Assembly (NCBI GenBank): GCA_016188605.1
Contig: JACPHP010000001.1
Span: forward strand, 1,327 to 65,326
DNA length: 64,000 nt
Direction of reading: 5' to 3'
Origin: Candidatus Spechtbacteria bacterium
Lineage (GTDB): Bacteria; Patescibacteriota; Minisyncoccia; Spechtbacterales; JACPHP01
Under the pieces are notes generated by a model. It saw only the letters and a list, made by a program, of their open reading frames with translations. It was not told the origin of the DNA and made no database searches. Shown piece by piece: positions 40,348-62,991 of this stretch (its first letter is position 1; each line of letters begins with the position of its first letter). A program made the translations under genes and the position numbers.

Positions 40348-40354
40348 AAATTTA

Positions 40355-40470: not shown

Positions 40471-41619
40471 TTAATGGAAGCTAAGCCAAATTGCTGTCAT
40501 TGAAAAAAGCGAAGCTACAGCCCATGCGTACATCACTATAGTCGCCTCGCTCCAACCTGTAATTTCAAGGTGATGATGTAACGGGGCCATTGCAAGCAAT
40601 CTATGTCCGAATAATACACGCCACGCGACTTGAATGAGAACTGATACGATTTCAATAACGAATATTCCTCCTATGATTGGCAAAAGCACTACCCTGTCTA
40701 ACGCAAACGCAATCGCGGTAAGCATTACCCCCATTCCAAGCGATGCCACGTCTCCCATTTGATATCGTGCGGGTTTGATATTAAATAGTAAATAGCCAAG
40801 CAGTGCGCCTATCGTTACCGCAATCAGGAAAATGAAATCTGTGTTTCTATGTTGGAGCGCTACGATAAAAAACGCGCTGTAGGATAGCAGTAATGTCCCA
40901 GCAGATAGCCCGTCAATGCCGTCGGTAATGTTTACAGCATTAGACATAAACATAACCAGGAAAATAATTAAAGGAACAATCATCCAGCCCAGATCATATG
41001 AACCATGCCATGGAATCCAGATTGACGTCCAGCTAAGCTTAAATGAAAGCCACCAGGCAATAATGCATCCTATAATGAATTGTACCAAAATTTTCTCATG
41101 AGCCTGAATGCCACTGCCGGGATGCGATCCCAGAAGATAGAAAAATCTTTTATACGCGTACCACGGCAATAACAGTACATACCATACGCGAGCTAAAATA
41201 TTTTTGTGGACGCGTATAAGCGTCCAAACTTTTCCAAGCGTACGCACGGGGCGGGTTTTTGTATAAAAGATATTCAGCAGGTCGTCCAAACCACCCAAAG
41301 CAGCTGACAACAGTAGCACTCCTATTGGTACATATGTCGTCTCACGATGCCAATTAAACATCGTTGTGAGCACCGCGATAACGCTAACAATTATAATGCC
41401 TCCCATGATTGGTGTACCTATTTTTGCCTCGCGCCCGGCAATTAACGATGAAAAATCGTGTTCATCTCGTCGAGTTATGTGTAATTTTTTAAGAAGCGCG
41501 ATAAGCGGAATTGAGCCTATGACGGTTAAAGCGAATGCCGTGAAAAAAAATGCAAAAATAGAATCCGGAAATGAAGTAAAAATCATACTTACAAGTACAG
41601 CGGACGATATAGACCACAT
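40471..41619 (-). CDS. mraY: phospho-N-acetylmuramoyl-pentapeptide transferase
   Basis: Motifs GTPIMGG and NAVNITDGIDGLSAG. Confidence 0.85.
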   Translation of the reverse strand: MWSISSAVLVSMIFTSFPDSIFAFFFTAFALTVIGSIPLIALLKKLHITRRDEHDFSSLIAGREAKIGTPIMGGIIIVSVIAVLTTMFNWHRETTYVPIGVLLLSAALGGLDDLLNIFYTKTRPVRTLGKVWTLIRVHKNILARVWYVLLLPWYAYKRFFYLLGSHPGSGIQAHEKILVQFIIGCIIAWWLSFKLSWTSIWIPWHGSYDLGWMIVPLIIFLVMFMSNAVNITDGIDGLSAGTLLLSYSAFFIVALQHRNTDFIFLIAVTIGALLGYLLFNIKPARYQMGDVASLGMGVMLTAIAFALDRVVLLPIIGGIFVIEIVSVLIQVAWRVLFGHRLLAMAPLHHHLEITGWSEATIVMYAWAVASLFSMTAIWLSFH

Positions 41620-42359: not shown

Positions 42360-42368
42360 ATGTTTACT

Positions 42369-43673: not shown

Positions 43674-43746
43674 ATAATTATAATATATGGTATATAAAAA
43701 AAATAATCGGGAGTATCGCAATATATTCCTTAAAGGAGGAATAAGA

Positions 43747-44793: not shown

Positions 44794-44868
44794 TCCCTCT
44801 CCCAAGGAGGATTTACAACCATCCGGGATGGGCGGAGAAAACAAATCATTAAAGTCCCAAAATATCAT

Positions 44869-45031: not shown

Positions 45032-45099
45032 GTATCTAGTCTTACCGGGGCATCTCAATATGAGGTGCCTTTTGTTTTATAATCAGGTGTTATCTGGTT

Positions 45100-45295
45100 T
45101 CAAAATTTTCAATGGTTATGTTTTCAGCCATAGCAAGAAATACAAAAAAATGTATTTCTACGTTTAACAAAAATTACAACAAAATGTAATTTTACGCTAA
45201 GGCTGATCCCCGCCAGAGGCGGGCAGGCGTCTCAGGCGGAGAAAATTTAGTAATTGTAAATTTATTGAAAATTGTTAAATTGAAAATTGATCATT
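45100..45295. repeat. spacer filled with heptamer repeats (ttgaaaattg units) and a long-variant REP-like element
   Basis: ttcaaaattttcaatgg...gtaattgtaaatttattgaaaattgttaaattgaaaattgatcat. The same ttgaaaattg motif follows R8 at 27400..27455. Confidence 0.6.
45196..45246 (+). mobile_element. REP-like element long variant copy R9
   Basis: gctaaggctgatccccgccagaggcgggcaggcgtctcaggcggagaaaattt, the reverse complement of the 21367 copy. Confidence 0.65.
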
Positions 45296-46630: not shown

Positions 46631-46676
46631 CTTTATCGGGTAGTCTATAGAAGCACGGCTTCTATACTCGCGCTTA

Positions 46677-47810
46677 TCATATAATTTTCGCTAATACTTT
46701 CTCCGCGTAATCTTTATCGCGTACCACATCCCCTACAGGCAGACCAGTTTCATTCTCCGCTTCTTGTGTCGCGCGTCGCGTGTCTTCTTCAGACATGCCG
46801 GATGTATTCAAAGCCACCGCTGCAACTTTTGTGTCGCGGTATGTCGGTAAAATACTAGATTCGTAGTGCTTAATCGCTTCTTTCAGCGAAGGAAGAGCCA
46901 CAAGCTTGGAGCCAATGGAGTGTTTTCGCGCGGGCCTGTGGACTAACACCATATGCGTTGGCACCGCGCCGTGAATTAGGGAGATGCAGGTATTCGAGAA
47001 TGCGGGATGAAATAAACTCCCCTGCCCTTCCACAAAAAAAATATCGTAATCATTTTGTTTTTCAATCAGCATTTTCTCCACCGCGCCAGCCATAAAATCC
47101 GCTGGCAGGGCGTCTATGGAAATCCCCCAGCCCTCAATCATAATGCTCGTTTGTCCCGTAGGGATTACGCAGGCACGCATGCCCCGCTTTTGCGCAGCTC
47201 GCGCGAGTTCATAGCTTGTTGTCATCTTTCCAATAGCGGCATCGGTACCTACCGTTAAAACTATAGGTTTTGTAATGTGATAAGATTGCGAGGAACACAC
47301 GGGAATACTTTGCAAATCAACATCAGAGCGCACGTCCCAAATTATTGAGCCACTGGTTTTAGCGGCCTCGCTAAACTGCGCATTATTTTTTAGCGGATAA
47401 TGCATTCCCGAAACTACATGCATGCCTTGTTGCAAAGCCGTTAGAATATCATTTTCCCACTCGCGTGGCAACCCTCCGCCCTCTGGGGCGGCGCCTAGTA
47501 AAAGAACAGATGCTTTGGTAATATCACGCGCTTCAGCGAGCGACGAAAAAATTGGCGTATCGACATTTTTTGAATCATCGAGATATCCGCCAAGCACATC
47601 ATATACTCTTATGTGGGGTATCCGATACCCCACATAAGATGTGGAGTCCACGATGCCCGCTATCGGATATTCCGCGTATCGCAAAATCCCATCCGCGGTT
47701 TTTGCCCGCATGGGGAATTTTTTGCGTGCATTAAGGCCAAAAACCCCCTCGGCGTAGATGAGAGATACGTGCTCTGCTAGGTTAATCGGCGCATTTATTG
47801 GGCTAGCCAT
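46677..47810 (-). CDS. DUF1611-family P-loop protein (same family as MurL, the UDP-MurNAc-L-Ala-L-Glu epimerase described in Xanthomonas)
   Basis: N-terminal LIYAEGVFG...AKTADGILRY...GIVDS and P-loop TVGTDAAIGKMTT match the DUF1611 pattern from memory. Confidence 0.55.
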   Translation of the reverse strand: MASPINAPINLAEHVSLIYAEGVFGLNARKKFPMRAKTADGILRYAEYPIAGIVDSTSYVGYRIPHIRVYDVLGGYLDDSKNVDTPIFSSLAEARDITKASVLLLGAAPEGGGLPREWENDILTALQQGMHVVSGMHYPLKNNAQFSEAAKTSGSIIWDVRSDVDLQSIPVCSSQSYHITKPIVLTVGTDAAIGKMTTSYELARAAQKRGMRACVIPTGQTSIMIEGWGISIDALPADFMAGAVEKMLIEKQNDYDIFFVEGQGSLFHPAFSNTCISLIHGAVPTHMVLVHRPARKHSIGSKLVALPSLKEAIKHYESSILPTYRDTKVAAVALNTSGMSEEDTRRATQEAENETGLPVGDVVRDKDYAEKVLAKII

Positions 47811-49927: not shown

Positions 49928-51328
49928 CTATTCTTTTTCTTTTACAGGAATAATCTTGAGATGTAATTCATTAAGTTGCGCTTCGTCAACCGTGCTTGGC
50001 GCTTCCATTACGGAAGTCCTGCCATTTCCGGTTGTTGGAAACGGAATTACTTCGCGAATACTCTGCTCTCCTAATAATACCAGAAGCCAGCGGTCAAAGC
50101 CAGCAATGCCTCCATGAGGAGGAACGCCGAAAGAAAAAGCTTCAAGAAGATGTCCGAAACGATCTTCAATTTCTTCTTTGCTATGCCCTAGCGCTTGAAA
50201 AACCTTTGTAAGAACATTGGGGTCTGTGGTCCTGATACTGCCTCCGAAGACTTCAGCGCCATTTAGCACCAAGTCGTATTGCTTTGCGCGAATTTGGCCG
50301 TACGCGGAAGGATCGTCTAATTTTATTATGTCATCATCTACAATTGCTGTAAACGGATGGTGAGCTGCTCCCCAACTTCCATCGTCTTTTTTTTCAAACA
50401 TTGGAAAATCTACAACCCATGTATAGGCCATTACATTTTTATCTTCTTTATTCTTGCGCACATCAGGGTTATCGCGGCCATAATCTTTCATAGCATCGGC
50501 GTATGACATACGCGGGAATGGCTTTTCCTGTATTGTTTTGCCCAGCACGTTCTCCGTGACATATACCACGAGCTCCTCAAGCAGAGAAATAATATCTTCT
50601 TGCTCTACAAATGACATTTCTATGTCTAACTGATCAAACTCAAAGAGGCGGTCGTTGCGCAAATCTTCATCGCGGAAACAACGCGCGAATTGAAAATACC
50701 GATCCATGCCGCCAACCATCAATAATTGCTTGTATTGCTGTGGTGATTGCGGGAGTGCGTAAAATTTTCCCGGATAATGACGAGATGGTACAAGGAAGTC
50801 GCGCGCGCCTTCCGGTGTGCTTTTGGTAAGGATTGGCGTGTCGATTTCGGTAAATCCTTTTTCCGTCAGCATATTGCGCAAGGTCTGCTTCACTTTGTGG
50901 CGCGCTTGCAATATCTCTCGCACGCGAGCGCGGCGAATATCAAGGTAACGATACTTCCAGCGAAGTTCTTCGCTGATATCGTATCCATCACCATCAATAG
51001 AAAACGGCAGTGTTTTTGCCACGCTTAAAACTTCAATCGTTTGCGCCAGCATTTCAAAATCACCCGTTATCATATTTGGGTTTTTCATGTTTTCAGGGCG
51101 GCGCTGGACTGTGCCTGTAATTTTCAAAACCCATTCTGAACGCGCGTCTTTTGCCTTTTCGTAGAATTCACCCGCAGAAGGCAATATCACGACCTGCAAA
51201 AGCCCGGATACATCGCGCATGTCCAGGAAAATAATCTTGCCATGGTCGCGGCGAACATGCACCCATCCGGCGATGGTTACCGATTCGTTTTCGTGTTGAA
51301 CTATGTCTTTTATAAGAATTCTGTTCAT
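49928..51328 (-). CDS. aspS: aspartyl-tRNA synthetase, short (archaeal/eukaryal-like, no GAD insertion) form
   Basis: N-terminal OB fold, motif 2 FRDEDLRNDRLFEFDQLDIEMSF, motif 3 GGSIR..PPHGGIAGFDRW. 466 aa. Confidence 0.75.
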   Translation of the reverse strand: MNRILIKDIVQHENESVTIAGWVHVRRDHGKIIFLDMRDVSGLLQVVILPSAGEFYEKAKDARSEWVLKITGTVQRRPENMKNPNMITGDFEMLAQTIEVLSVAKTLPFSIDGDGYDISEELRWKYRYLDIRRARVREILQARHKVKQTLRNMLTEKGFTEIDTPILTKSTPEGARDFLVPSRHYPGKFYALPQSPQQYKQLLMVGGMDRYFQFARCFRDEDLRNDRLFEFDQLDIEMSFVEQEDIISLLEELVVYVTENVLGKTIQEKPFPRMSYADAMKDYGRDNPDVRKNKEDKNVMAYTWVVDFPMFEKKDDGSWGAAHHPFTAIVDDDIIKLDDPSAYGQIRAKQYDLVLNGAEVFGGSIRTTDPNVLTKVFQALGHSKEEIEDRFGHLLEAFSFGVPPHGGIAGFDRWLLVLLGEQSIREVIPFPTTGNGRTSVMEAPSTVDEAQLNELHLKIIPVKEKE

Positions 51329-51341
51329 AGTTATAGTTATA

Positions 51342-52910
51342 TTATTCGTTTCTATAAAACGGCAGTGACACTATAAAGGTTGACCCTTTCCCTTCCCCCT
51401 CTGACTCAACCCACGCCGTACCGCCGTGATCTTCTACAATACGCTTGACTATAAATAAGCCAAGTCCGGTGCCATTAACGTCAATTTTTTTACCTCCCTC
51501 CCCACGGGAAAAACGCTGGAACAACTTTTCTTTATCCGCTTCGGTAATGCCAATGCCCGTATCTTTCACGGAGATGCGCATGCGCAATGGGTTATTGTAT
51601 AATTGAGTAACGCTTACCTCCACAGACCCTCGCGGCGTATATTTTATCGCATTGTCGATAAGGTTCAATATCACCTGGCGCAATTTGCTATCATCTGCTT
51701 TGACGCAAAACCGCACGGCATTTTCTGGATGGTGCCAAATAAGCTTTAGGCCTTTTGATTCAGCAGAGATTTTTTGCTCGTCTACAATACTGTCTATCAT
51801 ATCGGGAATGCAGATTTTTTGGAAGACATAATGAAATTCGCCTCGTTCAATGCGAGACACGTCTAGCAAATCTTTCACAAGTCCTATGAGCACCTCGTTG
51901 CTTGAATAAACCTTTTTTAACGCGTCATTTGCGTTGATGTCTATTTTTCCGTAGTCGCCATCAATAACCATAGAAAGATAGCCCTTGATGGCCGTGAGAG
52001 GCGTGCGTAGCTGATGCGAGGCGATGGAGATAAACTCTGATTTGAGGTCGGAAATTTTTTGCAGTTCTCTGATTTCACGAAGCGTGCCGCGAATAAGAGA
52101 GATGCCAAATATAGTTACAAATATAAATAGAATACTATTGACTGAGAATTCTCGCGGTGTCGGCGATGTTAGTACATTTATGAGGAAAATAAGAATAACT
52201 AGAAAAGTAAATGTTTCTGTGGCAATAACGCGAATATTGAATAGCTGATGTCTAAATATGGCATATGCCGTGAGTATTAGAAACGGCAACGTAAAAATAG
52301 GCCCGAATTTTATGAAGAATGTAATGTGTAGCAATGCCGTCGCGACAAATTGAGTTAGTATAAGTAGCGCAAACATTAAGAAATAGCCAGTAGCAACGTA
52401 AACCATCTGCGCCCGCCTAAGTCCAGTAGCTATTTTTAATTTAAGTATCAACTGCCTACCTCCCAATATAAAGAGTAGGAGGATCGTGATGCCAAATAGT
52501 GGAATAAGTGACCCGGGTATTGGCGCTCCATTGGCATCAATGTACTTAAAAACAAATGGCGTTTGAGTGGCTATGATCGTGACGATCGAAAGTATCCATA
52601 TTCCTGCATGGGCGAACTTCGGCATTTTCAATTCCTCGTCCGGGAAGACTTGAACCAAAAAGAAAAACATCAGCTGCAGGAAAACCGCAACCATCAAAAC
52701 TATCCTTGCCCATATCAGCATGTATGGCGATGGCTGCAATGAAAAATAATTTGCAATAGTCCACAGAACAAGGGCTATTGTGGATAAGACAAAGAATCGT
52801 CTGCTGGGGCCCGAATCGCCCTTAAAATAAATAAGCGCGCCAAGAAATATACTTGCCGCGACAGCAATAAAAGCCGAGATAAATGTGACATCACCAAAAA
52901 GTGATGGCAT
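51342..52910 (-). CDS. sensor histidine kinase with about 7 N-terminal TM helices; no cognate response regulator in the window
   Basis: H-box SHQLRTPLTAIKGY. HATPase N/G boxes (DNAIKYTP, DTGIGI, GTGLGLFIVK). Confidence 0.8.
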   Translation of the reverse strand: MPSLFGDVTFISAFIAVAASIFLGALIYFKGDSGPSRRFFVLSTIALVLWTIANYFSLQPSPYMLIWARIVLMVAVFLQLMFFFLVQVFPDEELKMPKFAHAGIWILSIVTIIATQTPFVFKYIDANGAPIPGSLIPLFGITILLLFILGGRQLILKLKIATGLRRAQMVYVATGYFLMFALLILTQFVATALLHITFFIKFGPIFTLPFLILTAYAIFRHQLFNIRVIATETFTFLVILIFLINVLTSPTPREFSVNSILFIFVTIFGISLIRGTLREIRELQKISDLKSEFISIASHQLRTPLTAIKGYLSMVIDGDYGKIDINANDALKKVYSSNEVLIGLVKDLLDVSRIERGEFHYVFQKICIPDMIDSIVDEQKISAESKGLKLIWHHPENAVRFCVKADDSKLRQVILNLIDNAIKYTPRGSVEVSVTQLYNNPLRMRISVKDTGIGITEADKEKLFQRFSRGEGGKKIDVNGTGLGLFIVKRIVEDHGGTAWVESEGEGKGSTFIVSLPFYRNE

Positions 52911-52920
52911 AAGAAAAAAG

Positions 52921-53955
52921 TTACTTTATTGTCTGATTGCTATTATCAAGATAAACGATATACCTGCCTGATTTTAAATCTTGTTTTGTAGTAATTTTTC
53001 GAACTGCATAAGCTACTGCCGATCCCGCGATTGTCGCGGTGGTTCCAAGCTGAGGCACTGCCGCAATCGTTTTGCCGATTTCAGAAAGAGACTCCCGCAT
53101 TCTTTGCGTGAGGTTAGCGGGATCAACTATTCTTGTCGCAACCTTTACCCATTCAGAATACGCCAGTCCAGCTATCTTGTCGGGATCAACTCCTTCAACC
53201 AGACCGTGTAGAATAGGTCTTTCTGGTTCTTCATCAAATCTCTCAACATCAAGTATAACATTATCTCCGTTATCTGTAGCCATAACCACCGGAATGCGAT
53301 GTTCGCGGCACACTATGCGTGAAAGAAGCTTTAATTCCAAGCTATCCATTTCATCAATGAAAACGTCTAATTTTGGCTCAAGAATAAATTTTTCAAGCGT
53401 TTGGCGATTTACACCATCAGTCCATAAATCCAATTCTGAAAAAGGGTCTAGCTCCCAAACCTGTTGTGCCGCAAAGTCAGTTTTATTCATTCCTATGGCA
53501 AATACTGGCGCGCGAAGGCGGTTGAGATTAGTAATCTCAATGACATCATAGTCGGCTATTTTTAAATTTTTCGGACCACCGCTGAAAACCAGCGCGTTTA
53601 TTACATTAGAACCAACGGAAAGACCTATAATTCCTACTCTCGCCGCTCTATATGTTTCCTGTTCTTCCTTGGTAATAATATTTTTGTTGCGCGCAGTGCG
53701 CAACTCAAGATAAATCTCCTCGCTAGGCACGCGCGCCACGATATTTCGCCAAGGATAATATACATACACTGCGGGCAAACCTTCGTTATTTTTGATAAAA
53801 ATATCGCACTTTTCCGCCCTCTCTGTTGGCGGAGCGGATTTTAGCGCGGGGTTGCGGATAACGCAGAGTTCTTTCAGCGCTGTGGGGATTGTGTCAACAA
53901 AAATCGCGCCGGCGGGTAACAATTGTTTATCTTTTTCTATACGAATTGATTGCAT
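52921..53955 (-). CDS. ThiF/MoeB/E1-like adenylyltransferase-fold protein with about 110-aa N-terminal extension
   Basis: Rossmann GIIGLSVGSNVINALVFSGGPKNLKIADYDVIEITNLNR, typical of the E1-like superfamily. Confidence 0.65.
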   Translation of the reverse strand: MQSIRIEKDKQLLPAGAIFVDTIPTALKELCVIRNPALKSAPPTERAEKCDIFIKNNEGLPAVYVYYPWRNIVARVPSEEIYLELRTARNKNIITKEEQETYRAARVGIIGLSVGSNVINALVFSGGPKNLKIADYDVIEITNLNRLRAPVFAIGMNKTDFAAQQVWELDPFSELDLWTDGVNRQTLEKFILEPKLDVFIDEMDSLELKLLSRIVCREHRIPVVMATDNGDNVILDVERFDEEPERPILHGLVEGVDPDKIAGLAYSEWVKVATRIVDPANLTQRMRESLSEIGKTIAAVPQLGTTATIAGSAVAYAVRKITTKQDLKSGRYIVYLDNSNQTIK

Positions 53956-53966
53956 AGATATGCATA

Positions 53967-55532
53967 TTACGTCTTTTTAGTCCACCTTTGTTTAATAGAT
54001 TTTACATTGAAGTATTTTTCATCTCCCTTGGCTGCAAAACGAATTGACGGAATAGCTCTTTCTCCAATAGCATCATAGAGCCGATTGTATTCAAGGTTTC
54101 TTTTGCGAAGCGCCGCGACGATGTAATCGCTTACGATTTTTCGGGCGAGCGCGCTTTCCTTTACGCCTTCGCGCAATTCAACAGTAATTTCCCAGTATTG
54201 GTCCTGGTTGCTTTTACTTTTTTGCTGCATCACAAATTTACCCGTCGCAAATGGCACAACTTCTTCGTTCTCCAATCCCTCCTTGATGTTTTCTGGATAA
54301 ATCTTTAGCCCGTAAAAAGAGATGGTAAAATCGCTTTTTCCAAATACTGCTAAAAATGGAAACGTCCATTTAGGTTGTTTTTGTACCGACTGATCGCTAG
54401 CAAGGCTTGAAATTTTCATCACTTCGTCAAAAGGAATAATTTTTCCGGCATCGTGGACGTTATACCTTACAAGCGGCACTCCACCCCTTGCCGTAAAAAG
54501 AAGCTCCCCTTCCTGTTCTTCGAAGAATTTAAAGATGGGATGATATTGCACAAATGTCGGGGTAAACGTTTCATCTCCCCACAATTCCGATGCTGTGTCT
54601 TTATCCTCTGATGCCGCGCGGCGTATGGCAACCGAAAGAGGTGTTTCGTGTCCCAGAATCCCCGAATCGGCAGAGCCATATATATTAATTGATGTAGATT
54701 CGGCGCTAGTCGCGTTGGTTTTACTTAGTATGTAGTCGCGAAATGCTTCGCTGAAATTTTCTGTAGCAAAAAGAAATTTTATCTTTTGATTTTCCCACGA
54801 TATCCCCCTTTTCTCTCCGGCGTCAATAATATCTTTAACAAACGGCGGGTACCCGGCGAGAACAATCTGGTTATATTTTGGGCCCAGTTCCTTTATAGCA
54901 CGCAGTACGTCATTAAGCTCAACTCCCGGAGCAATAATACTGATAGGCAACCCCATTTGCGATGTATGTAAAATAGAATCAAGTGTAATAATTCCGGCAA
55001 TATAAATACCCATTGAGAAACTTATTACTACAAGCGTGGGCGTGCTGCCGGCATCAAAAAATTCTTTTAATATAAGAGCGTGGATAAGAGACGTTTCTAT
55101 TTCAAGATTGTCACCCCTAGGCCAAAAATATGGCGTACCTGAAGAGCCAGAGCTGACAGAAAAGATAGTATTTTCTTCAACCTTGCCATCCCACGACAGC
55201 TCTTCGGACGAATATGCCTTGATATAGTTTTCTTTATCAGTAAAAGGTACATTCTTAAAATCATCTATAGTTTTAATTTCGGTGTGCTTGATATTGTTCT
55301 TTCTTAGAAAATCTTTATACGCGGGCACGCTTTCTGCCGCTTCGTGAAATAGAGAAAGAGCCATCTCTTGTCCGTGAGTTTCCCAAAAATCGGCGCTTTT
55401 TGAGCAAAGCAAGGAATTTGCTTCGTCAAGATTTATTTTATACAAATTGAGGATTCCGTCATATTTAAATCCACGCCTGTCAAAAAGGCGTAAGAAAAGT
55501 TTATAAAAAGGATTTAACGTGTCGTGTTTCAT
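53967..55532 (-). CDS. adenylate-forming enzyme of the PaaK/CapK/F390-synthetase (ANL-like) family
   Basis: ATP-binding motif FSVSSGSSGTPYFWPRG and overall architecture. Confidence 0.6.
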   Translation of the reverse strand: MKHDTLNPFYKLFLRLFDRRGFKYDGILNLYKINLDEANSLLCSKSADFWETHGQEMALSLFHEAAESVPAYKDFLRKNNIKHTEIKTIDDFKNVPFTDKENYIKAYSSEELSWDGKVEENTIFSVSSGSSGTPYFWPRGDNLEIETSLIHALILKEFFDAGSTPTLVVISFSMGIYIAGIITLDSILHTSQMGLPISIIAPGVELNDVLRAIKELGPKYNQIVLAGYPPFVKDIIDAGEKRGISWENQKIKFLFATENFSEAFRDYILSKTNATSAESTSINIYGSADSGILGHETPLSVAIRRAASEDKDTASELWGDETFTPTFVQYHPIFKFFEEQEGELLFTARGGVPLVRYNVHDAGKIIPFDEVMKISSLASDQSVQKQPKWTFPFLAVFGKSDFTISFYGLKIYPENIKEGLENEEVVPFATGKFVMQQKSKSNQDQYWEITVELREGVKESALARKIVSDYIVAALRKRNLEYNRLYDAIGERAIPSIRFAAKGDEKYFNVKSIKQRWTKKT

Positions 55533-55576
55533 ATTTTTATACGTGACGCAAACTTCAATAATATCTCATGAATATC

Positions 55577-56626
55577 TCATGTTAGCACTTCTTCAACTCC
55601 TCTTCGCGGGCTATGTGGCGCAACTTTTGTAGGATATCCTAGTCCAAAAAACATTTGCGGAGAGAGGGTCTGGTTAGTTTTTTCAAAAATAAAAGTCGAG
55701 AGTTTTTTTCTGGACTCGCCACTTTCAATTGCAGCAACCATAATGGACGCGGCCATGCCTTTGCTTTGTAATGTCAGAAGTACGCTTTCAAGAAGCTCTC
55801 CGGTATGCAGCCACGCCGCCGCATTATCATCTTTGGTGCTTATTATACCAACAGCTCCGAAATTTAGCACGCGCTTAATCGCTTTTTTCTCCTCTACTGG
55901 CGATACATCTATTAAGCGTAACGCCCAAGGTGCCGCAAGTGATTTAAGCATAGACATTTCGTGTCCAGATCCCGGCATGCCATCTCGGCTCATCGTCCAA
56001 TTATTGCGAATCCATGTCGCAAGTTCTTTGCGGAAATCAAGCTGCGACATTTTTTCTTTCATGCCTTCCCCCGCTATCGAAGCCAATAGTTTTTTATCGG
56101 TGAAATTATTGGTAATAGTTAGATTGATGCCGCTTTCGCTAACTAGATTCTGAAGATCATCAATAATTTCCGCTGGCACTTCTTTGTTCTGATACTCTGC
56201 TCTGTATGAAACGCGCTGCGTAATTGCTGAAAATAAGGCATCATCATGGCTAACAAGGCCTTTATCGTCGCATGTTAGCGTTACGGCGTGCTCGGCGTTA
56301 GCGTTTGAAAGCTGTTCGTTATAATGAACAGCGCATTCAAAACCGTAATGTTTTGCCGCAATAATCATATTTTCTGCGGCGCAACCAAGGGCGATATAAG
56401 TCATGCGGCCTGTCGGATCGCCAAATTGCGGGCGGCGTGAAAAATCAGCAATTATTTCAATGCTGTTATTATCTACATGAAATTTCCATGGTTGTGTGTT
56501 GTGGCTGGATGGCGCGAGGATGCCAAAACAAACTAAAAATTTTAGTTTGTCGGTTTTGGTGGGCTGGTCATAGAAACCCCTTGGGTCTATACTCCACGCT
56601 TCGTAGTTTGATGGTTTACGGCACAT
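55577..56626 (-). CDS. nitroreductase-family flavoprotein (two-lobed, about 350 aa; SagB/Acg-like size class)
   Basis: SSHNTQPWKF motif and a second degenerate lobe. Confidence 0.65.
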   Translation of the reverse strand: MCRKPSNYEAWSIDPRGFYDQPTKTDKLKFLVCFGILAPSSHNTQPWKFHVDNNSIEIIADFSRRPQFGDPTGRMTYIALGCAAENMIIAAKHYGFECAVHYNEQLSNANAEHAVTLTCDDKGLVSHDDALFSAITQRVSYRAEYQNKEVPAEIIDDLQNLVSESGINLTITNNFTDKKLLASIAGEGMKEKMSQLDFRKELATWIRNNWTMSRDGMPGSGHEMSMLKSLAAPWALRLIDVSPVEEKKAIKRVLNFGAVGIISTKDDNAAAWLHTGELLESVLLTLQSKGMAASIMVAAIESGESRKKLSTFIFEKTNQTLSPQMFFGLGYPTKVAPHSPRRGVEEVLT

Positions 56627-57777: not shown

Positions 57778-58908
57778 CTATAACCCTCGTTTTATACGGC
57801 GCAAGCTTTCCAGTGCCCAGTTTGGCCAATAACGCCAGGAAATCGGTAAATCTTGCGCGTGGAGATAATCTGTTTGGTAGCCTCCGAATCCTTTTTTGAA
57901 CAACGTTAAGCCAGCCCATGGGTGCTTAGGATTTTCGCTGGTTGTGATGCCCCAAAAGTTATATAGCTTCTTGTTTCTTCTCTTTGCTTCTTTAATTGCC
58001 GCCCACTGCACTGCGTAGGCAGTCGGGATATTTGAATACCTAAGCGATGACGCGCCGTGGTGGTAGAAAGCGCTGTTTCCGTAAAAAATAATCACCGCGC
58101 TTGCTTGAGGTTCACCCTGAGCATTGCCGAAGGGCTCGCCCTTATACCAAGCGGAGATCACCTCCGCTTGTCCTTCCGTAGTCCTTCCGTAGCATTGTAG
58201 CGTAGGAGGGCGAAGGAGGACACTTTCATTTTTCGAGAACGCATCAACCTCGCATTGAATATATTCTCGTGAAAATGGAATAAAGTCGTGCTTAGCAACT
58301 GTTTCTTTGTGTAATTTATAAAAATGGTCAATATCTTCCTTGCTGGCGCCGATTGTAATCTCTACGCCTTCTCTTTCCGCGCGGCGGATGAGGTTTCGCG
58401 TGGTTTTGCGCATGCCCTTTAGCAATTCTTCCTCGCTAGGCGATAAATCAAGTGTCCAAGTAGTTTCCGCGTGCATGTGAATTGGCGCGGGGCGAAAACC
58501 CAAATCAGCAAAAAGCTGGCGATTTTCTTCAGTAGCTATCATTGGCGGGCTGACGCGAATAAAATACGCTTTTTCTTGTTGTGCAATCTTTTTTAACTCC
58601 GATGTAAGGGTTTTTAAGATTTCAAATTTTGAATTTTCATTTTGAGATTTGAGATTTGAGATTTGAGATTGAAATATCGGCCCGTGTGGTATAAAAAGAA
58701 ACCTTCCGCGTCTCGCCTCTACCAAAATTACAAGTATCACTGATACGAGTTCTCCATTTTCCTCAACACCAAAACGCCACATCTTATCCCCCATTCGCAC
58801 GTTAAACTCGCCCCACTGCCATGAATGCAGGAAAGTATGGTCGGGCTGGGAAGTGACGAAACTATCCCATTTTTCCTTGTCTGTTATTTGGATGATTTGT
58901 GGAGACAT
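57778..58908 (-). CDS. FemAB/FemX-family aminoacyl-tRNA-dependent peptidyltransferase-like protein
   Basis: HSWQWGEF N-terminal motif and tandem GNAT-like halves, about 376 aa. Confidence 0.65.
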   Translation of the reverse strand: MSPQIIQITDKEKWDSFVTSQPDHTFLHSWQWGEFNVRMGDKMWRFGVEENGELVSVILVILVEARRGRFLFIPHGPIFQSQISNLKSQNENSKFEILKTLTSELKKIAQQEKAYFIRVSPPMIATEENRQLFADLGFRPAPIHMHAETTWTLDLSPSEEELLKGMRKTTRNLIRRAEREGVEITIGASKEDIDHFYKLHKETVAKHDFIPFSREYIQCEVDAFSKNESVLLRPPTLQCYGRTTEGQAEVISAWYKGEPFGNAQGEPQASAVIIFYGNSAFYHHGASSLRYSNIPTAYAVQWAAIKEAKRRNKKLYNFWGITTSENPKHPWAGLTLFKKGFGGYQTDYLHAQDLPISWRYWPNWALESLRRIKRGL

Positions 58909-58913: not shown

Positions 58914-59068
58914 TATCTCAAAACGCAAATCTCAAATGTCAAAACTGAAACTTAAATCTCAAAACTACTACGGAGATACTTTTAATTTTTCCGCCAGAGG
59001 CGGATCAGCCTCAGGCTGAAGATTTAAGATTTTGATTTGAGTTTTACGATTTGAAATTTGAGATAAAA
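58914..59068. repeat. palindromic heptamer array (caaatct / agatttg arms) enclosing REP-like element R10
   Basis: Same organisation as 796..950. Confidence 0.7.
58987..59020 (-). mobile_element. REP-like element copy R10
   Basis: ttttCCGCCagagGCGGatCAGCCtcaGGCTGaa. Confidence 0.7.
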
Positions 59069-59082: not shown

Positions 59083-60318
59083 CTATAAGATATTTTTTAA
59101 AAAATTAATCACATTTCTTGCATCCTGTTTTGATATATTTACGTGCGTCGGCAAGTTAAAAACTTCGCGCGCGGCTTTCTCGGCATTGGGGCATGAGCCT
59201 TCCGCATAATTCATTATGTCGAAATCTGTACCTCGCGGCGCAATGACACTATCATACCAATCCCCTAGCAAAATGCGCGCATTCTTTGCTTTTTGCAAGA
59301 TACTGTCTCTGTTTTGATTGCGCATTGGATAGCGCAAGAATACATATTTGGCTCCGCGAGACATATTAAGCCATGAATTTTTTGCCGGTGTTGGGTCAAG
59401 CGCTTTTTTATACATATCCGCAACCGCGTTCCTATGAGCACTGAACAATTCGATTTTTTCAAGCTGGTGGAGAGCGAGTATAGCCAAAGCGCCAGGTAGT
59501 CGCGCGGGAAAATATTCTGGCTTCCTGCCGTATCTTTCACCTTGCGTTACGGCTTTTGAAAGCAAATGCAAGCGTTGCGCCGCTCTTAGCGCGTACCTGC
59601 CAACAGTCCAGTATGTTGCGATAATAGGAGCCATGAATAAAGGATGCAGTAATTGCTGGCTAGTCCACAAATACGATGGACAAGGAAGCGTTGTCCATTC
59701 CTGTAGCGCGCGCCGCGACACTATTTTTTTATTTACTATTAGCGCTCCTCCATAAACCGAAGAAATAACTTTGTCTCTGCCGAAGCTAAAGAACGTGGCG
59801 TCACCAATGGTGCCAACCCTTTTTCCACCCCACTCCGCGCCAAGCGCGTGAGCGCAGTCTTCTATTACAAACAACTTATGATTTTTTGCTACCCGCAAGA
59901 GCGCGTCCATGTTAGCCGGTATGCCAAATGTATGCTGAACTACCACAGCTTTACAGCGTGGTGTAATTTTGTGTTCTAAATCCATTGGATCCATGTTGTA
60001 GCCATCCTTTTCTATATCTACAAATACTGGCTTTGCGCCCCACCATAATACTGGATTTGGCACTGCGTTGCAGGTAAATGCTTGTACAAGTATTTCGTCC
60101 CCAGGCTGAATACGCAACGCTTTAAGCAGTGTCAAAAAAGCCGAACGACCGCTGTTAAATAGCAAGACTTCCGCAGTGGTGCCGAGGTATTGCGCAAGGG
60201 CTTTTTGTAATTTTTTATTAGCCCCCTCGTTTCTCCAATTCCACGGACGTATCAAAACAGACCAAGCGAGGCGCCTGTCATCATTTTGAGTATTGGGAGA
60301 AAGTGAAGTATAGATCAT
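59083..60318 (-). CDS. DegT/DnrJ/EryC1/StrS-family PLP-dependent sugar aminotransferase
   Basis: FTCNAVPNPVLWWGAKPVFVDI...EDCAHALGAEW...FSFGRDKVISS (PLP-Lys). Confidence 0.85.
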   Translation of the reverse strand: MIYTSLSPNTQNDDRRLAWSVLIRPWNWRNEGANKKLQKALAQYLGTTAEVLLFNSGRSAFLTLLKALRIQPGDEILVQAFTCNAVPNPVLWWGAKPVFVDIEKDGYNMDPMDLEHKITPRCKAVVVQHTFGIPANMDALLRVAKNHKLFVIEDCAHALGAEWGGKRVGTIGDATFFSFGRDKVISSVYGGALIVNKKIVSRRALQEWTTLPCPSYLWTSQQLLHPLFMAPIIATYWTVGRYALRAAQRLHLLSKAVTQGERYGRKPEYFPARLPGALAILALHQLEKIELFSAHRNAVADMYKKALDPTPAKNSWLNMSRGAKYVFLRYPMRNQNRDSILQKAKNARILLGDWYDSVIAPRGTDFDIMNYAEGSCPNAEKAAREVFNLPTHVNISKQDARNVINFLKNIL

Positions 60319-60441: not shown

Positions 60442-62073
60442 TTAGTCATCTATAATCAAATTTCTCACAATCGTTTCCGGTACGCGATTCTCTAACAATA
60501 TAACGTCTCCTTCGTCGCATAATTCTTGGGCTTTGCGCATTGCTATATATGGATCTGGTATGCACCACAAGGCATTTTTACTCATGCCGGCTTTAATAGC
60601 TTCGTCTTTTATGTATTCGTAGAAATCTGGCGCCGTAACAATGCACTGATCGCAGGTCTCCGCGATTTTTGCTCCTATCGCGCGATGCGCGTCTTCCGCA
60701 GCACGACCAAGTTCAATCAAGGGATATATTATGCATATTTTTTTGCGGCCCTCTGATTCTTTTAGAATATCGAGCGCCGCAAACACTCCATCTGTGTTAG
60801 CTGAATAACTATCATCAATTATTGTAGTATGCTTGATACCTCGACGGAAATGAATTGCGTGCGGAGGCGTTTCAAGTGTTTTGCAGGCCTCGGCAATCTC
60901 TTTGTAGCTCATGCCAAGTCCGTGCGCTGCGCAAATAGCGCCGACAACATTCGTACCGTTATGCGCGCCGCTTAATGGCACCTCAATGGCGATTTTCTTT
61001 TTCTTGTCCCGTATTTCCACTGTCATCCTATCTTTGCCTTGGTGAATTTTCTGCGCAAAAATTGCAGCAGATGCGAGGCCTTCAGGTAAATTGGTCGCGT
61101 ACAGACGTTTTGGTTTTTTGCAATTATCGTAGAGAGCGCGCGTGTACTGGTTGTCGCCGTTAAATATCGCGAGCCCTTTTTCTGGCAGTGATTCAATTAG
61201 TTCGTATTTTGCGCGCTGAATATTACGAAACGAACCAAAGAGCGACAAGTGCTGTTGGTTGATGCCGGTTAAAATACCGATTTGCGGCTTCACCATCGCG
61301 CAAATGTCGCGTATTTCTCCTCGCTTGTAAGCTCCCATCTCAACGATGAATATTTCATGCTCTTGCCTAAGATTTTTTATAATATGGCTTGCGATGCCAA
61401 TCTCTGTATTGGTATTTTCCGGCGTTTTTAATACATTAAAATTATTTTCCAAAATATGCGAAAGAAATTCTTTCATGCTGGTCTTGCCGAAGCTTCCCGT
61501 AATGCCAATGACGAGCAAGTCTGGAGTAGATGCTAACTTTGTCTTGGCCCGAGCAACTATTTTTCGCTTCATGTAAAGCGATAATGGCCGAGCAGTACCC
61601 ACAAAAGCTGTTGCAATAGCTGGAACCATTAAATCTGTAAAAAACAGAAGCGATAACGCGCTTGGAAGCGGCGACAACAGCCCAGCGATAACCATTACGA
61701 GCGCCGAGCTAAAAGTTAGACCAAGCAGAGACACGGCCTTTTTGGTAAATGTAGGCATACGAAGGCGATGGTCTTGATATGCTTCATACATGCGGTATGC
61801 CTGAAAACCATATAAGCCAATCCCGGCTAAAAGCATTACATAAGAGAAGAAAGATGCTAGCAATCCAAGCGCGGAAAACAAGAACAGCACTCCCACTGCC
61901 AGGGTTTTATAACTTAACAAAAGTTTTTTCGCGCTTGGTAGCTCGAAGTGAGCGCGCATGCGATCAAGCCGATATTCTTTTAATTGCCAAAGATATATCC
62001 AAAACAGCGCGTCTTTTACCACGCTTGTGATCCAAAGTATTCCGAAAATAAATAATAGGATTATTTCTACCAT
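60442..62073 (-). CDS. murF: Mur ligase (MurF-like, UDP-MurNAc-pentapeptide synthetase) fused to an N-terminal about 190-aa polytopic membrane domain
   Basis: 4-5 TM helices, then LLVIGITGSFGKTS...IVEMGAYKRGEI...GAHNGTNVVGA. A cytoplasmic Mur ligase fused to TM helices is unusual. Confidence 0.7.
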   Translation of the reverse strand: MVEIILLFIFGILWITSVVKDALFWIYLWQLKEYRLDRMRAHFELPSAKKLLLSYKTLAVGVLFLFSALGLLASFFSYVMLLAGIGLYGFQAYRMYEAYQDHRLRMPTFTKKAVSLLGLTFSSALVMVIAGLLSPLPSALSLLFFTDLMVPAIATAFVGTARPLSLYMKRKIVARAKTKLASTPDLLVIGITGSFGKTSMKEFLSHILENNFNVLKTPENTNTEIGIASHIIKNLRQEHEIFIVEMGAYKRGEIRDICAMVKPQIGILTGINQQHLSLFGSFRNIQRAKYELIESLPEKGLAIFNGDNQYTRALYDNCKKPKRLYATNLPEGLASAAIFAQKIHQGKDRMTVEIRDKKKKIAIEVPLSGAHNGTNVVGAICAAHGLGMSYKEIAEACKTLETPPHAIHFRRGIKHTTIIDDSYSANTDGVFAALDILKESEGRKKICIIYPLIELGRAAEDAHRAIGAKIAETCDQCIVTAPDFYEYIKDEAIKAGMSKNALWCIPDPYIAMRKAQELCDEGDVILLENRVPETIVRNLIIDD

Positions 62074-62089: not shown

Positions 62090-62212
62090 AATCAAAACAA
62101 TCTCAAATCGCAAAACTCAAATCGCAAATCTGCAACTCAAATCTTAAATCTACTGCGAAGATTTTAGATTTGAGATTCAGTTTTGAGATTTGCCATTTGA
62201 GATTTGAGATTA
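62090..62212. repeat. palindromic heptamer array (caaatc / gatttg arms); encodes the C-terminal about 18 aa (NNNLKSQMANLKTESQI) of the downstream hydrolase
   Basis: aatcaaaacaatctcaaatcgcaaaactcaaatcgcaaatctgcaactcaaatcttaaatc ... agatttgagattcagttttgagatttgccatttgagatttgagatt. Confidence 0.7.
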
Positions 62213-62991
62213 TTATTTTTATGTTGTGCTATAAACTCCGCCATTGTTTGAGCCATTTCATGTGGCACCTCCAGGTTTATCGCGTGCCCTCTCTCGGGAA
62301 ATACGTGCAGGCGTGAATCTGCAACTTCTTTTTGAATGATATACGCGTCGGCAAGCGGTGTTGCTCTATCGTTTTCTCCCCATAAAATTAGCGTAGGTAA
62401 GGTAATATGCCTCACGTATTTGCGCAAATTTTCGTTAATAACTTTTTTAAATGTTTCGCGCATGACGCCGTCTGTCTTGTAGTAATCTCGTTCCAGGGTA
62501 AATTTGTACCAGAGATTACGAACTATGGGTTTTAGGAAATGAAGCGGCGGCACGGCAAAAATAACATTGCCGATTTTTGTTGTTATCAGAAACATGCGCG
62601 TACGTACCGTGTGTCGACGCACTACTCCTGCCGCATCGCATAAAATGAGGGTGGAAACATTTTCTCCGTGCTTTGCGCCATAGATTATGGCAATTCTTCC
62701 GCCAAACGAATGTCCTACAAGAGTGAAATCTTGCAGGCCAAGCGACTGGATGAACTCGTATACAAACTCCGTGTATTGATAAATATCCCAAGGTTCTGAC
62801 GGTGGAGGCGTTTCGCCAAATCCAGGCATATCAGGAACTATCGCTCTGAAGCCGCGTTCTGCTAAATCATTTTGCACGGCGCGCCAGTTGTTAGCGCGAG
62901 ATCCCCATCCGTGAAGAATAACAATTACGGCTCCCGTGCCCAGGTCGCGGTAGAAGACGGGAATACCTTGAATGGTGATGTTTTTATCCAT
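62164..62991 (-). CDS. alpha/beta hydrolase fold protein; its C-terminal tail is encoded by the heptamer array
   Basis: GHSFGG nucleophile elbow and HGWGS oxyanion region. The last about 18 codons lie inside 62164..62212. Confidence 0.75.
   Translation of the reverse strand: MDKNITIQGIPVFYRDLGTGAVIVILHGWGSRANNWRAVQNDLAERGFRAIVPDMPGFGETPPPSEPWDIYQYTEFVYEFIQSLGLQDFTLVGHSFGGRIAIIYGAKHGENVSTLILCDAAGVVRRHTVRTRMFLITTKIGNVIFAVPPLHFLKPIVRNLWYKFTLERDYYKTDGVMRETFKKVINENLRKYVRHITLPTLILWGENDRATPLADAYIIQKEVADSRLHVFPERGHAINLEVPHEMAQTMAEFIAQHKNNNLKSQMANLKTESQI

What the first reader, a model, noticed from the sequence alone, without database searches (positions are those of the whole stretch)
60442..62073. 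MurF-type Mur ligase fused to an N-terminal polytopic membrane domain
The first about 190 aa of the 543-aa protein form 4-5 hydrophobic helices before the ligase motifs (GITGSFGKTS, EMGAYKRGEI). Mur ligases are normally soluble cytoplasmic enzymes. A membrane-tethered MurF would place the last cytoplasmic step next to MraY, a possible adaptation of a minimal cell.
Basis: seen in the sequence. Interest (0 to 1): 0.55.

Follow-up and report, generated by a model that had tools for sequence, protein, structure and literature searches.

The report
Membrane-embedded MurF ligase of CPR bacteria
This gene encodes the cell-wall enzyme MurF in an unusual form: its normal front domain is replaced by a five-helix membrane domain. 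The form is conserved across hundreds of ultra-small (CPR/Patescibacteria) bacterial species and appears undescribed.

Summary
Window 60442-62073 (-) is one intact 543-aa ORF. Residues 1-160 form five membrane helices, residues 161-185 a basic linker helix, and a MurF-type Mur-ligase core follows (P-loop at 190-199).

It is not a frameshift artefact. The same architecture occurs full-length in more than 100 protein clusters. The N-domain profile finds 1024 clusters at 50% identity. All 80 best GTDB species loci carry it, including the cultured Minisyncoccus archaeiphilus.

The membrane domain is not added to MurF; it replaces the canonical UDP-binding domain 1. It also carries an invariant cytoplasm-facing motif (LWQLKEYRxDRxxAHF), so it is probably more than an anchor. 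It has no Pfam match and no structural match in the PDB.

The gene is the only MurF-like gene in 88 sampled loci. In several it sits directly upstream of mraY inside complete mur/fts clusters. Most often it is translationally coupled to an alpha/beta-hydrolase, a DegT-like aminotransferase and a FemX-like transferase.

The best reading is that it is the lineage's housekeeping MurF, built into the membrane next to MraY. Whether a soluble MurF also exists elsewhere in these genomes, and whether the substrate is UDP- or lipid-linked, is untested. I rate it a new variant of a known kind, of moderate to high interest.

The parts
60442..62073 (-). Complete ORF of the membrane-embedded MurF-type ligase (543 aa)
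   Evidence: One search lists the ORF. One search finds a 100% identical NCBI protein (HYV65_00305, Candidatus Spechtbacteria, annotated 'hypothetical protein') and more than 100 full-length homologue clusters at 38-52% identity.
61594..62073 (-). N-terminal membrane domain, residues 1-160: five TM helices, N-terminus outside
   Evidence: Hydropathy. AF2 helices (pLDDT 94.4 for the domain alone). Positive-inside counts. No Pfam family and no PDB fold match (best E=2.5).
61945..62004 (-). Conserved cytoplasmic-face motif FWIYLWQLKEYRLDRMRAHF (residues 24-43), directly after TM1
   Evidence: In 40 homologues W29, Q30, K32 and Y34 are invariant, and F24, W25, E33, R38, H42 and F43 are at least 90% conserved. 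WQ[LIVT]K[ED]Y is present in 70 of 88 locus ORFs, and the core Q-x-K-x-Y-[RH] is kept in the 15 motif-less ORFs printed out of 18, Minisyncoccus included.
61738..61767 (-). Second conserved cytoplasmic loop, RLRMPTFTKK (residues 103-112; consensus LKxPxFTxKA)
   Evidence: P107 and T110 are at least 90% conserved in the 40-sequence alignment; P107 is invariant in the 21-sequence N-domain alignment. The loop is rich in K and R.
61594..61665 (-). TM5 (residues 137-160) with conserved intramembrane D147 and P151
   Evidence: D147 and P151 are at least 90% conserved. The helix continues without a break into the linker helix.
61519..61593 (-). Basic cytoplasmic linker helix (residues 161-185), equivalent to the canonical domain1-domain2 linker
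   Evidence: The TIGR01143 match starts here (residue 176 = profile position 65). Mean K+R is 7.5. A176 is invariant and K179 at least 90% conserved.
60925..61503 (-). Central ATP-binding Mur-ligase domain (residues 191-383). The P-loop GITGSFGKTS is at 61477-61506 and EMGAYKRGEI at 61312-61341
   Evidence: Pfam PF08245, E=1.9e-38. G190, G193, S194, K197, E245, H275 and N305 are invariant, and K289 (aligned with E. coli MurF K202) is at least 90% conserved.
60493..60843 (-). C-terminal Mur-ligase domain (residues 411-527), with DDSYSAN at 60796-60816
   Evidence: Pfam PF02875, E=2.4e-13. Y423, N426, E454, G456 and H463 are invariant; D420 is at least 90% conserved.
62164..62991 (-). Upstream alpha/beta-hydrolase (275 aa), a conserved operon partner
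   Evidence: Pfam Abhydrolase_1. It lies immediately upstream of the ligase in 75 of 88 loci; 70 of 74 gaps are 20 nt or less, median 0.5 nt.
59083..60318 (-). Downstream DegT/DnrJ/EryC1-like PLP aminotransferase (411 aa), a conserved operon partner
   Evidence: Pfam PF01041, E=3.3e-67. The closest solved relatives are nucleotide-sugar aminotransferases. It lies immediately downstream in 65 of 88 loci.
57778..58908 (-). FemAB/FemX-like aminoacyl-transferase (376 aa), a conserved operon partner
   Evidence: Pfam PF02388. The best solved relative is S. aureus FemX, Lipid II:glycine glycyltransferase, E=6.6e-14. A FemAB-like ORF accompanies the ligase in most loci.
40471..41619 (-). MraY (382 aa), the enzyme that uses the MurF product; about 19 kb away in this window
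   Evidence: Used as the MraY reference in the phmmer survey; MraY-labelled ORFs lie next to the TM-ligase in L041, L052, L073 and L081. The Pfam MraY hit on record is for the L001 homologue.

Best explanation
This is the housekeeping MurF (the enzyme that adds D-Ala-D-Ala to the UDP-MurNAc-tripeptide) of a large part of the CPR/Patescibacteria. In these bacteria the canonical soluble domain 1 has been replaced by a dedicated five-helix membrane domain. The ATP-dependent ligase core (central plus C-terminal domain) stays in the cytoplasm, held rigidly at the inner membrane face by a continuous TM5-linker helix. The conserved basic and aromatic motif after TM1 and the second conserved loop face the cytoplasm beside the ligase. 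They probably take over part of domain 1's role, either positioning the diphosphate-sugar end of the substrate or docking to MraY or the operon partners. The product would then be made at the membrane surface where MraY uses it. Shown here: the architecture, the topology signal, the intact catalytic residues, the MurF affinity of the core, the conservation, and the position in mur/dcw clusters. Inferred: the D-Ala-D-Ala specificity, the role of the motif, and any interaction with MraY.
For: The core is MurF-like: TIGR01143 scores 237.7 bits against at most 89 bits for MurC/D/E models. E. coli MurF 1GG4 is the best solved sequence relative (E=3e-32, against 2.4e-9 for the best MurE). Foldseek's top 10 are all MurF structures, with TM-score to the target up to 0.75. 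All catalytic residues are conserved. The architecture is conserved full-length in more than 100 clusters, in 1024 N-domain clusters at 50% identity, 639 of them at E<=1e-10, and in all 80 best species-genome loci, including cultured Minisyncoccus archaeiphilus and a closed 655-kb chromosome. There is exactly one MurF-like ORF in each of 88 loci, and none of them best-matches the canonical E. coli or P. aeruginosa MurF fragments. Positional orthology: in L041, L052, L073 and L081 the order is glmS, TM-ligase, mraY, ftsW, murG (then ftsA, ftsZ). In L006, L035, L061 and L063 the order is murE, murC, murB, murA, (hydrolase), TM-ligase, (DegT, FemAB), mraY, with (murD), ftsW and murG following in L035, L061 and L063; L006 ends at mraY. 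The confident single-chain model (pTM 0.85) shows a continuous TM5-linker helix. The positive-inside rule places the ligase and both conserved motifs in the cytoplasm. MurE in the same clusters is soluble yet also lacks domain 1, so loss of domain 1 does not by itself imply a non-UDP substrate. A membrane-associated MurF-MraY-MurG channelling complex has been proposed for ordinary bacteria (PMC4929429).
Against: The score is below the TIGR01143 trusted cut-off (237.7 against 288.6). The domain that binds the UDP moiety in canonical MurF is absent. The C-domain motif is DDSYSAN instead of the DDSYNAN seen in E. coli and P. aeruginosa MurF. I could not scan any complete genome, so a second, canonical murF elsewhere is not excluded. 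The tight coupling to a hydrolase, a DegT-like aminotransferase and a FemX-like enzyme in about 75% of loci hints at chemistry beyond the textbook step. There are no biochemical data.
Confidence: 0.6

Rival explanations
1. The MurF step has moved onto the membrane carrier. The enzyme would add D-Ala-D-Ala to a lipid-linked tripeptide intermediate (undecaprenyl-PP-MurNAc-tripeptide, with or without GlcNAc). The membrane domain and its basic interfacial motif would recognise the lipid-pyrophosphate head group in place of UDP, so MraY would act before MurF.
For: The UDP-binding domain 1 is missing and is replaced by a membrane domain with invariant Q, K, Y, R and H residues exactly at the cytoplasmic membrane interface, plus a conserved intramembrane Asp. 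There are precedents for cytoplasmic-face enzymes acting on Lipid II: MurT/GatD (my own knowledge) and FemX (one search shows that a FemX-like gene is an operon partner). The gene is adjacent to mraY in several genomes.
Against: Soluble MurE in the same clusters has also lost domain 1, so that loss is not specific to a membrane substrate. The ligase core shows no affinity to MurT (30.7 bits). There is no direct evidence on the substrate. MraY would have to accept a tripeptide precursor.
Confidence: 0.15
2. It is a specialised paralogue and not the housekeeping MurF. It would be a membrane-bound amide ligase that, together with the hydrolase, the DegT-like aminotransferase and the FemX-like transferase, adds a different amino acid or peptide to a peptidoglycan precursor or to another membrane-bound glycopolymer. 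A canonical MurF would be encoded elsewhere.
For: It forms a translationally coupled four-gene module, usually preceded by AspRS, in about 75% of loci. It scores below the MurF trusted cut-off and has a variant C-domain motif. Complete genomes could not be checked.
Against: In four loci it occurs without those partners, directly between glmS and mraY in an otherwise complete mur/fts cluster. No second MurF-like ORF exists in about 1.4 Mb of sampled neighbourhoods, many of which contain murA, B, C, D, E, G and mraY. The genomes are small (for example a closed 655-kb chromosome), which makes paralogue redundancy unlikely.
Confidence: 0.12
3. It is an assembly or frameshift artefact that joins a small membrane-protein gene to a truncated Mur-ligase gene.
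For: None beyond the unusual architecture. Raw reads were not available.
Against: The same continuous ORF occurs in hundreds of independent assemblies from NCBI, JGI, ENA and Logan. The junction is one uninterrupted helix with pLDDT above 90. GC and GC3 are uniform across the junction. The short N-domain-only hits are contig-end fragments that run into the P-loop. No stand-alone version of either half was found.
Confidence: 0.01

Closest known systems
MurF, UDP-N-acetylmuramoyl-tripeptide--D-alanyl-D-alanine ligase (EC 6.3.2.10; TIGR01143; e.g. PDB 1GG4, 4CVK, 4QF5, 3ZL8)
   Same: The central and C-terminal domains match in sequence and in fold, with about 378 aligned columns and TM-score to the target of 0.68-0.75 for the A. 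baumannii (4QF5, 4QDI, 4ZIY) and T. maritima (3ZL8) structures (lower, 0.48-0.62, for P. aeruginosa, E. coli and S. pneumoniae MurF). It has the P-loop, the Mg-binding Glu and His, the carbamylated-Lys equivalent and a DDxYxAN motif. It occupies the murF slot upstream of mraY in several genomes.
   Different: It has no alpha/beta domain 1. In its place are 160 residues of five TM helices with their own invariant motif, making it an integral membrane protein. It scores below the family's trusted cut-off. It has DDSYSAN where E. coli and P. aeruginosa MurF have DDSYNAN. It is usually in an operon with hydrolase, DegT-like and FemX-like genes.
MurT (Lipid II isoglutaminyl synthase subunit, with GatD)
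   Same: MurT is a Mur-ligase-family enzyme without a UDP-binding domain 1 that works at the membrane face on a lipid-linked precursor, so it is a functional analogy for the lipid-substrate rival.
   Different: MurT is soluble, has a Cys4 zinc ribbon and a DUF1727 C-terminal domain, and needs GatD. Here the match to the MurT model is only 30.7 bits against a cut-off of 800, the C-domain is the ordinary Mur_ligase_C, and no GatD-like neighbour was seen.
MurE-MurF and MurG-MurC fusion proteins, and the proposed MurF-MraY-MurG channelling complex (PMC4929429; PDB 8F5D)
   Same: The idea is the same: late cytoplasmic steps are physically coupled to one another and to the membrane steps in order to channel intermediates.
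   Different: Those are fusions between soluble enzymes, or non-covalent complexes. Here the coupling to the membrane is built into the polypeptide, at the cost of domain 1.
CapB/PgsB poly-gamma-glutamate synthetase (a membrane-associated Mur-ligase-family amide ligase; from my own knowledge)
   Same: It is a Mur-ligase-fold ATP-dependent amide ligase that is attached to the membrane.
   Different: It has a different subfamily and substrate and, as I recall, a single anchor helix. No PgsB/CapB model appears among the 25 NCBIfam hits.

Membership tests
MurF (TIGR01143 / EC 6.3.2.10) | Central ATP-binding domain with the P-loop GxxGK(T/S) and the Mg2+/carbamate residues (Glu, His, Lys) | tested here: met
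   PF08245, E=1.9e-38. G190, G193, S194, K197, E245 and H275 are invariant, and K289 aligns with E. coli MurF K202.
MurF (TIGR01143 / EC 6.3.2.10) | C-terminal Mur_ligase_C domain with the DDxYNAN-type motif | tested here: met
   PF02875, E=2.4e-13. The motif is DDSYSAN, with Y423 and N426 invariant and D420 at least 90% conserved. The first Asn of the canonical motif is Ser, Thr or Ala in most members.
MurF (TIGR01143 / EC 6.3.2.10) | Closer to MurF than to MurC, MurD, MurE, Mpl, MurT, CphA or FolC | tested here: met
   murF scores 237.7 bits against at most 88.7 bits for any MurC/D/E/Mpl model, the best being a MurE model. PDB phmmer gives MurF E=3e-32 against MurE 2.4e-9. Foldseek's top 10 are all MurF.
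MurF (TIGR01143 / EC 6.3.2.10) | Whole-protein score above the curated family cut-off | tested here: not met
   237.7 bits against a cut-off of 288.6. The match covers profile positions 65-374 of 418 only.
MurF (TIGR01143 / EC 6.3.2.10) | N-terminal alpha/beta domain 1 that binds the UDP moiety (three-domain architecture) | tested here: not met
   There is no profile match before position 65. Residues 1-186 are entirely helical and hydrophobic. PF01225 is not detected.
MurF (TIGR01143 / EC 6.3.2.10) | Soluble cytoplasmic protein | tested here: not met
   Five predicted TM helices, GRAVY +0.94 over residues 1-160, and a positive-inside pattern. This is prediction only.
MurF (TIGR01143 / EC 6.3.2.10) | Gene in the dcw/mur cluster next to mraY, and the sole murF of the genome | tested here: inconclusive
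   It is adjacent to mraY in L041, L052, L073 and L081, within mur clusters in L006, L035, L061 and L063, and there is one MurF-like ORF per locus in 88 loci. Whole genomes could not be scanned.
MurF (TIGR01143 / EC 6.3.2.10) | Catalyses ATP-dependent addition of D-Ala-D-Ala to UDP-MurNAc-tripeptide | not testable with these tools
   This needs an enzyme assay or a complementation test.
MurT (lipid II isoglutaminyl synthase) | Cys4 zinc ribbon, a DUF1727 C-terminal domain and a GatD partner | tested here: not met
   NF052464 scores 30.7 bits against a cut-off of 800. The C-domain is PF02875 and not DUF1727. No glutaminase neighbour appears in the contexts examined.
CapB/PgsB poly-gamma-glutamate synthetase | A match to PgsB/CapB family models | tested here: not met
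   None is among the 25 NCBIfam families with E<=0.01.

The most novel reading that the evidence does not exclude
The membrane domain is a substrate-recognition or hand-over module. Either the enzyme ligates D-Ala-D-Ala onto a lipid-linked tripeptide precursor, which would re-order the textbook pathway so that MraY acts before MurF. Or it forms an obligatory intramembrane complex with MraY that channels the nucleotide precursor. In both cases the invariant QxKxY(R/H)...R...H motif and the intramembrane Asp147 would bind the pyrophosphate head group. Together with the domain-1-less MurE, this would mean that a large fraction of bacterial diversity builds its stem peptide with structurally reduced, membrane-organised Mur ligases.
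Probability: 0.15. Interest if true: 0.85.

Novelty: new variant of a known kind. Interest (0 to 1): 0.6.

Why it matters
Mur ligases are textbook soluble cytoplasmic enzymes and antibiotic targets. A metabolon linking MurF, MraY and MurG at the membrane has long been proposed but never firmly shown (PMC4929429).

This protein is a natural case in which MurF is itself an integral membrane protein. It has lost the domain thought to hold the UDP end of the substrate. It is conserved across a very large bacterial radiation that includes a cultivable species (Minisyncoccus archaeiphilus).

That provides a tractable system for three questions: how much of domain 1 is needed for catalysis, whether the last nucleotide step is physically coupled to MraY, and whether the order of the steps can differ.

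It also matters for annotation and metabolic reconstruction of CPR genomes. Databases label these genes inconsistently as 'hypothetical protein', 'Mur ligase family protein' or 'MurF'.

Tried and rejected
1. Frameshift or fusion artefact. Rejected: the full-length architecture is conserved in independent assemblies, the junction is a continuous confident helix, and composition is uniform across it.

2. Stand-alone N-domain proteins. All the short hits I inspected from the N-domain profile search (13 of them) are fragments that run into the ligase P-loop or stop at contig ends.

3. A conserved internal start giving a soluble isoform. M168 is not conserved in the alignment.

5. Other Mur ligases in the window. 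Only the 451-aa MurC/Mpl-like gene at 45275-46630 was found.

6. Literature. Nine full-text searches combining MurF or Mur ligase with transmembrane, CPR, Patescibacteria, Parcubacteria, membrane-anchored or Minisyncoccus found no description of this architecture. Papers opened gave context only.

7. The Minisyncoccus annotation supplement. I searched it for mur genes, but the stored file is truncated and lacks those rows.

8. A whole-genome census for a canonical murF.

9. The geometry of the conserved motif relative to the active site. Model coordinates are not exposed, so this was not analysed.
Full report
**Observation.** The ORF at window 60442-62073 on the minus strand is real: ATG start, 543 aa, no internal stop. 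Pfam places Mur_ligase_M at residues 191-383 and Mur_ligase_C at 411-527, and finds nothing on residues 1-190.

Hydropathy shows hydrophobic stretches at about 1-26, 51-90, 112-137 and 138-160. GRAVY is +0.94 for residues 1-160 and -0.19 for the rest. GC and GC3 are the same on both sides of the junction.

**What the ligase part is.** NCBIfam ranks the MurF subfamily model TIGR01143 first, at 237.7 bits, far above the MurE, MurD and MurC models at 75-89 bits. The match covers only profile positions 65-374 and stays below the curated cut-off of 288.6. Among solved structures the best sequence relatives are MurF enzymes (E. coli 1GG4 at E=3e-32, then P. aeruginosa, A. baumannii and T. maritima); the best MurE is at 2.4e-9.

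An AlphaFold2 model built on 40 homologues is very confident (mean pLDDT 91.4, pTM 0.85). Foldseek against the PDB returns only MurF structures in the top ten, with about 378 aligned columns, which corresponds to the central and C-terminal domains plus the linker.

The catalytic inventory is strictly conserved in the 40-sequence alignment. It comprises the P-loop (G190, G193, S194, K197), E245, H275, K289 (aligned with the carbamylated K202 of E. coli MurF), N305, the DDSYSAN motif (Y423 and N426 invariant, D420 in at least 90%) and E454/G456/H463. The core is therefore a functional-looking MurF-type ligase.

**What the N-terminal part is.** Everything before residue 187 is helical: 2-31, 36-42, 46-52, 55-69, 74-100, 111-132 and 136/150-181. 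There is no room for, and no trace of, the alpha/beta domain 1 that binds the UDP moiety in canonical MurE and MurF (domain role from PMC10117817). The membrane domain thus replaces domain 1 and is not added to a complete enzyme. TM5 runs without interruption into a basic helix (161-185) that aligns with the canonical linker between domains 1 and 2.

Counts of K+R across 40 homologues are 5.5 for loop 29-54, 4.7 for loop 97-112 and 7.5 for the linker. They are 0-0.4 for the N-tail and the two short turns. This is the pattern expected for five TM helices with the N-terminus outside and the ligase in the cytoplasm.

The domain is not merely greasy. W14, W29, Q30, K32 and Y34 are invariant. F24, W25, E33, R38, H42, F43, Y88, P107, T110, D147 and P151 are at least 90% conserved. 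This gives an interfacial motif LFWxYLWQLKEYRxDRMxAHF immediately after TM1, a second cytoplasmic loop LKxPxFTxKA, and an intramembrane Asp/Pro pair in TM5. In more distant members the core Q-x-K-x-Y-[RH] persists (WQLKNYH in Minisyncoccus). The domain has no Pfam family even at E<=1. Modelled alone (pLDDT 94.4), it has no significant fold match in the PDB (best E=2.5).

**Is it real and how widespread is it.** The protein is 100% identical to an NCBI entry from a Candidatus Spechtbacteria MAG annotated 'hypothetical protein'. More than 100 further clusters align over 95-100% of its length at 38-52% identity.

A profile of the N-domain alone, searched against 1.84 billion cluster representatives, finds 1024 proteins (639 at E<=1e-10). 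The match is always at the N-terminus, and nearly all complete members are 505-585 aa. The short hits are fragments that run into the P-loop or end at contig edges.

The 80 best all cover the query from about residue 1-27 to about 540. Their deposited labels include Spechtbacterales and Nealson-, Wildermuth-, Staskawicz-, Colwell-, Yanofsky-, Wolfe-, Kerfeld- and Magasanikbacteria. Some are labelled Microgenomates or Peregrinibacteria. The set also includes a closed 655-kb chromosome and the cultured Minisyncoccus archaeiphilus PMX.108. Labels are as deposited, and several automated ones ('Saccharibacteria', 'Gammaproteobacteria') are probably wrong. A frameshift artefact is therefore excluded for all practical purposes.

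**Genomic context.** I compared reference proteins against all ORFs of 87 loci plus the window and counted neighbours. Each locus has exactly one MurF-like ORF, and none best-matches the canonical E. coli or P. aeruginosa MurF fragments.
- An alpha/beta-hydrolase lies immediately upstream in 75 of 88 loci; the median gap is 0.5 nt, and 70 of 74 gaps are 20 nt or less.
- A DegT/DnrJ/EryC1-like aminotransferase lies immediately downstream in 65 of 88 loci; 47 of 64 gaps are 20 nt or less.
- A FemAB-like gene follows, and AspRS usually precedes the hydrolase.
- The FemAB-like protein's best solved relative is S. aureus FemX, a Lipid II glycyltransferase. The DegT-like protein resembles nucleotide-sugar aminotransferases. 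The hydrolase is generic.

In L006, L035, L061 and L063 the module is embedded in murE-murC-murB-murA ... mraY, followed by (murD)-ftsW-murG in L035, L061 and L063. In L041, L052, L073 and L081 the partners are absent and the order is murA-(GlmU-like)-(GNAT)-?-glmS-TM-ligase-mraY-ftsW-murG-?-ftsA-ftsZ. That is the classical murF position. In the window itself the operon (hydrolase 62164-62991, ligase, DegT-like 59083-60318, FemAB-like 57778-58908) lies about 19 kb from mraY-ftsW-murG.

**Interpretation.** The simplest reading is that this is the MurF of these organisms, anchored in the membrane, with the ligase core at the cytoplasmic face. The same clusters encode a soluble MurE that also lacks domain 1: its P-loop is only 25-50 residues from the start, and the murE profile matches from position 72. 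Loss of domain 1 is therefore a lineage trend and does not by itself indicate a non-nucleotide substrate.

The invariant polar motif at the membrane interface, the confident inter-domain packing implied by pTM 0.85, and the conserved intramembrane Asp argue that the domain does more than tether. It may position the diphosphate end of the substrate, dock to MraY, or organise the operon partners. A MurF-MraY-MurG channelling complex has been proposed for ordinary bacteria on the basis of interaction data and gene fusions (PMC4929429). This protein would be a covalently built-in version of that idea.

I give this explanation 0.6. The more radical alternative is that the enzyme acts on a lipid-linked tripeptide, so that MraY precedes MurF. 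It is compatible with the architecture and with the MurT and FemX precedents but has no direct support (0.15). A specialised paralogue working with the DegT-like and FemX-like partners, with a canonical MurF elsewhere, cannot be excluded without whole-genome scans. It is disfavoured by the partner-free arrangement next to mraY and by the small genomes (0.12).

**Novelty.** Nine full-text searches and five opened papers gave no description of a Mur ligase with a polytopic membrane domain, or of this CPR variant. Databases name members inconsistently as hypothetical protein, Mur ligase family protein or MurF. I classify it as a new variant of a known kind: a MurF-core ligase with a novel, family-specific membrane domain in place of domain 1.

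Noticed in passing
window ~795-948, 29644-29737, 40354-40453, 58928-59058, 62099-62211 (intergenic); 35149-35173 and 58646-58670 (inside ORFs): A dispersed palindromic element is built from a 7-nt unit (GATTTGA / TCAAATC), with minus-strand copies followed by plus-strand copies at gene ends. GATTTGAGATT with up to 1 mismatch occurs 36 times against 2.4 expected. The copy just upstream of the ligase gene folds at -24.5 kcal/mol, z=-2.8. Copies run into coding sequence and encode '..NLKSQ..' tails or insertions, for example the hydrolase C-terminus and an in-frame triple repeat in the FemAB-like ORF. They may be terminators or a REP/MITE-like element.
   Followed up: partly
L006:3563-4849, L035:931-2070, L052:1298-2629, L061:519-1775, L063:790-1977, L069:1383-2639, L073:391-1635: MurE in these CPR clusters is only 379-443 aa. 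Its P-loop lies 25-50 residues from the start. The murE profile matches from position 72, and PF01225 is not on record. MurE therefore also lacks domain 1 but stays soluble. This looks like a lineage-wide reduction of MurE/MurF architecture that I did not find described in the literature I searched.
   Followed up: partly
window 41589-47810 (-): Five genes are inserted between the S11 D-Ala-D-Ala carboxypeptidase and mraY: a DUF1611/DgcN-like protein (46677-47810), a Mur ligase ambiguous between MurC and Mpl (45275-46630; murC 253 bits, mpl 238 bits, both below cut-off), a PALP-family PLP enzyme (43891-44934), an ATP-grasp-like protein with no Pfam hit (42444-43757) and an unknown 256-aa protein (41589-42359). 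No murD or murE is present in the window, whereas the related L001 has murD between the amidohydrolase and ftsW. This may be an alternative or salvage route for the stem peptide.
   Followed up: partly
most loci L001-L087; window 49928-51328 (AspRS): AspRS lies immediately upstream of the hydrolase, TM-ligase, DegT-like, FemAB-like module in the majority of loci. Because FemX-type enzymes use aminoacyl-tRNA, a link between Asp-tRNA and a peptidoglycan side-chain or cross-bridge is conceivable. It is untested.
   Followed up: no
window 38782-40347 (-); L001:18479-20038: A 520-aa Amidohydro_3-family protein is conserved directly downstream of mraY, before murD/ftsW, in both the window and L001. 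This is an unusual member of a dcw cluster, and its function is unknown.
   Followed up: no
window 51342-56626 (-); L003:8350-13986: A module is conserved downstream of the FemAB-like gene: a nitroreductase/TM1586-like protein, a 520-aa protein with no Pfam hit, a ThiF/E1-like protein, and a 7TM histidine kinase. It is present in the window and in L003. Its function was not examined.
   Followed up: no
L073:391-1635 and other CPR MurE N-termini, compared with window 61945-62004: The extreme N-termini of the short MurE proteins read MWQDLKNVYH... or WQKAKNTYH.... This superficially resembles the WQLK(E/N)Y(R/H) motif of the TM-ligase, though with different spacing. The stretch is too short to test and may be coincidence.
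   Followed up: no
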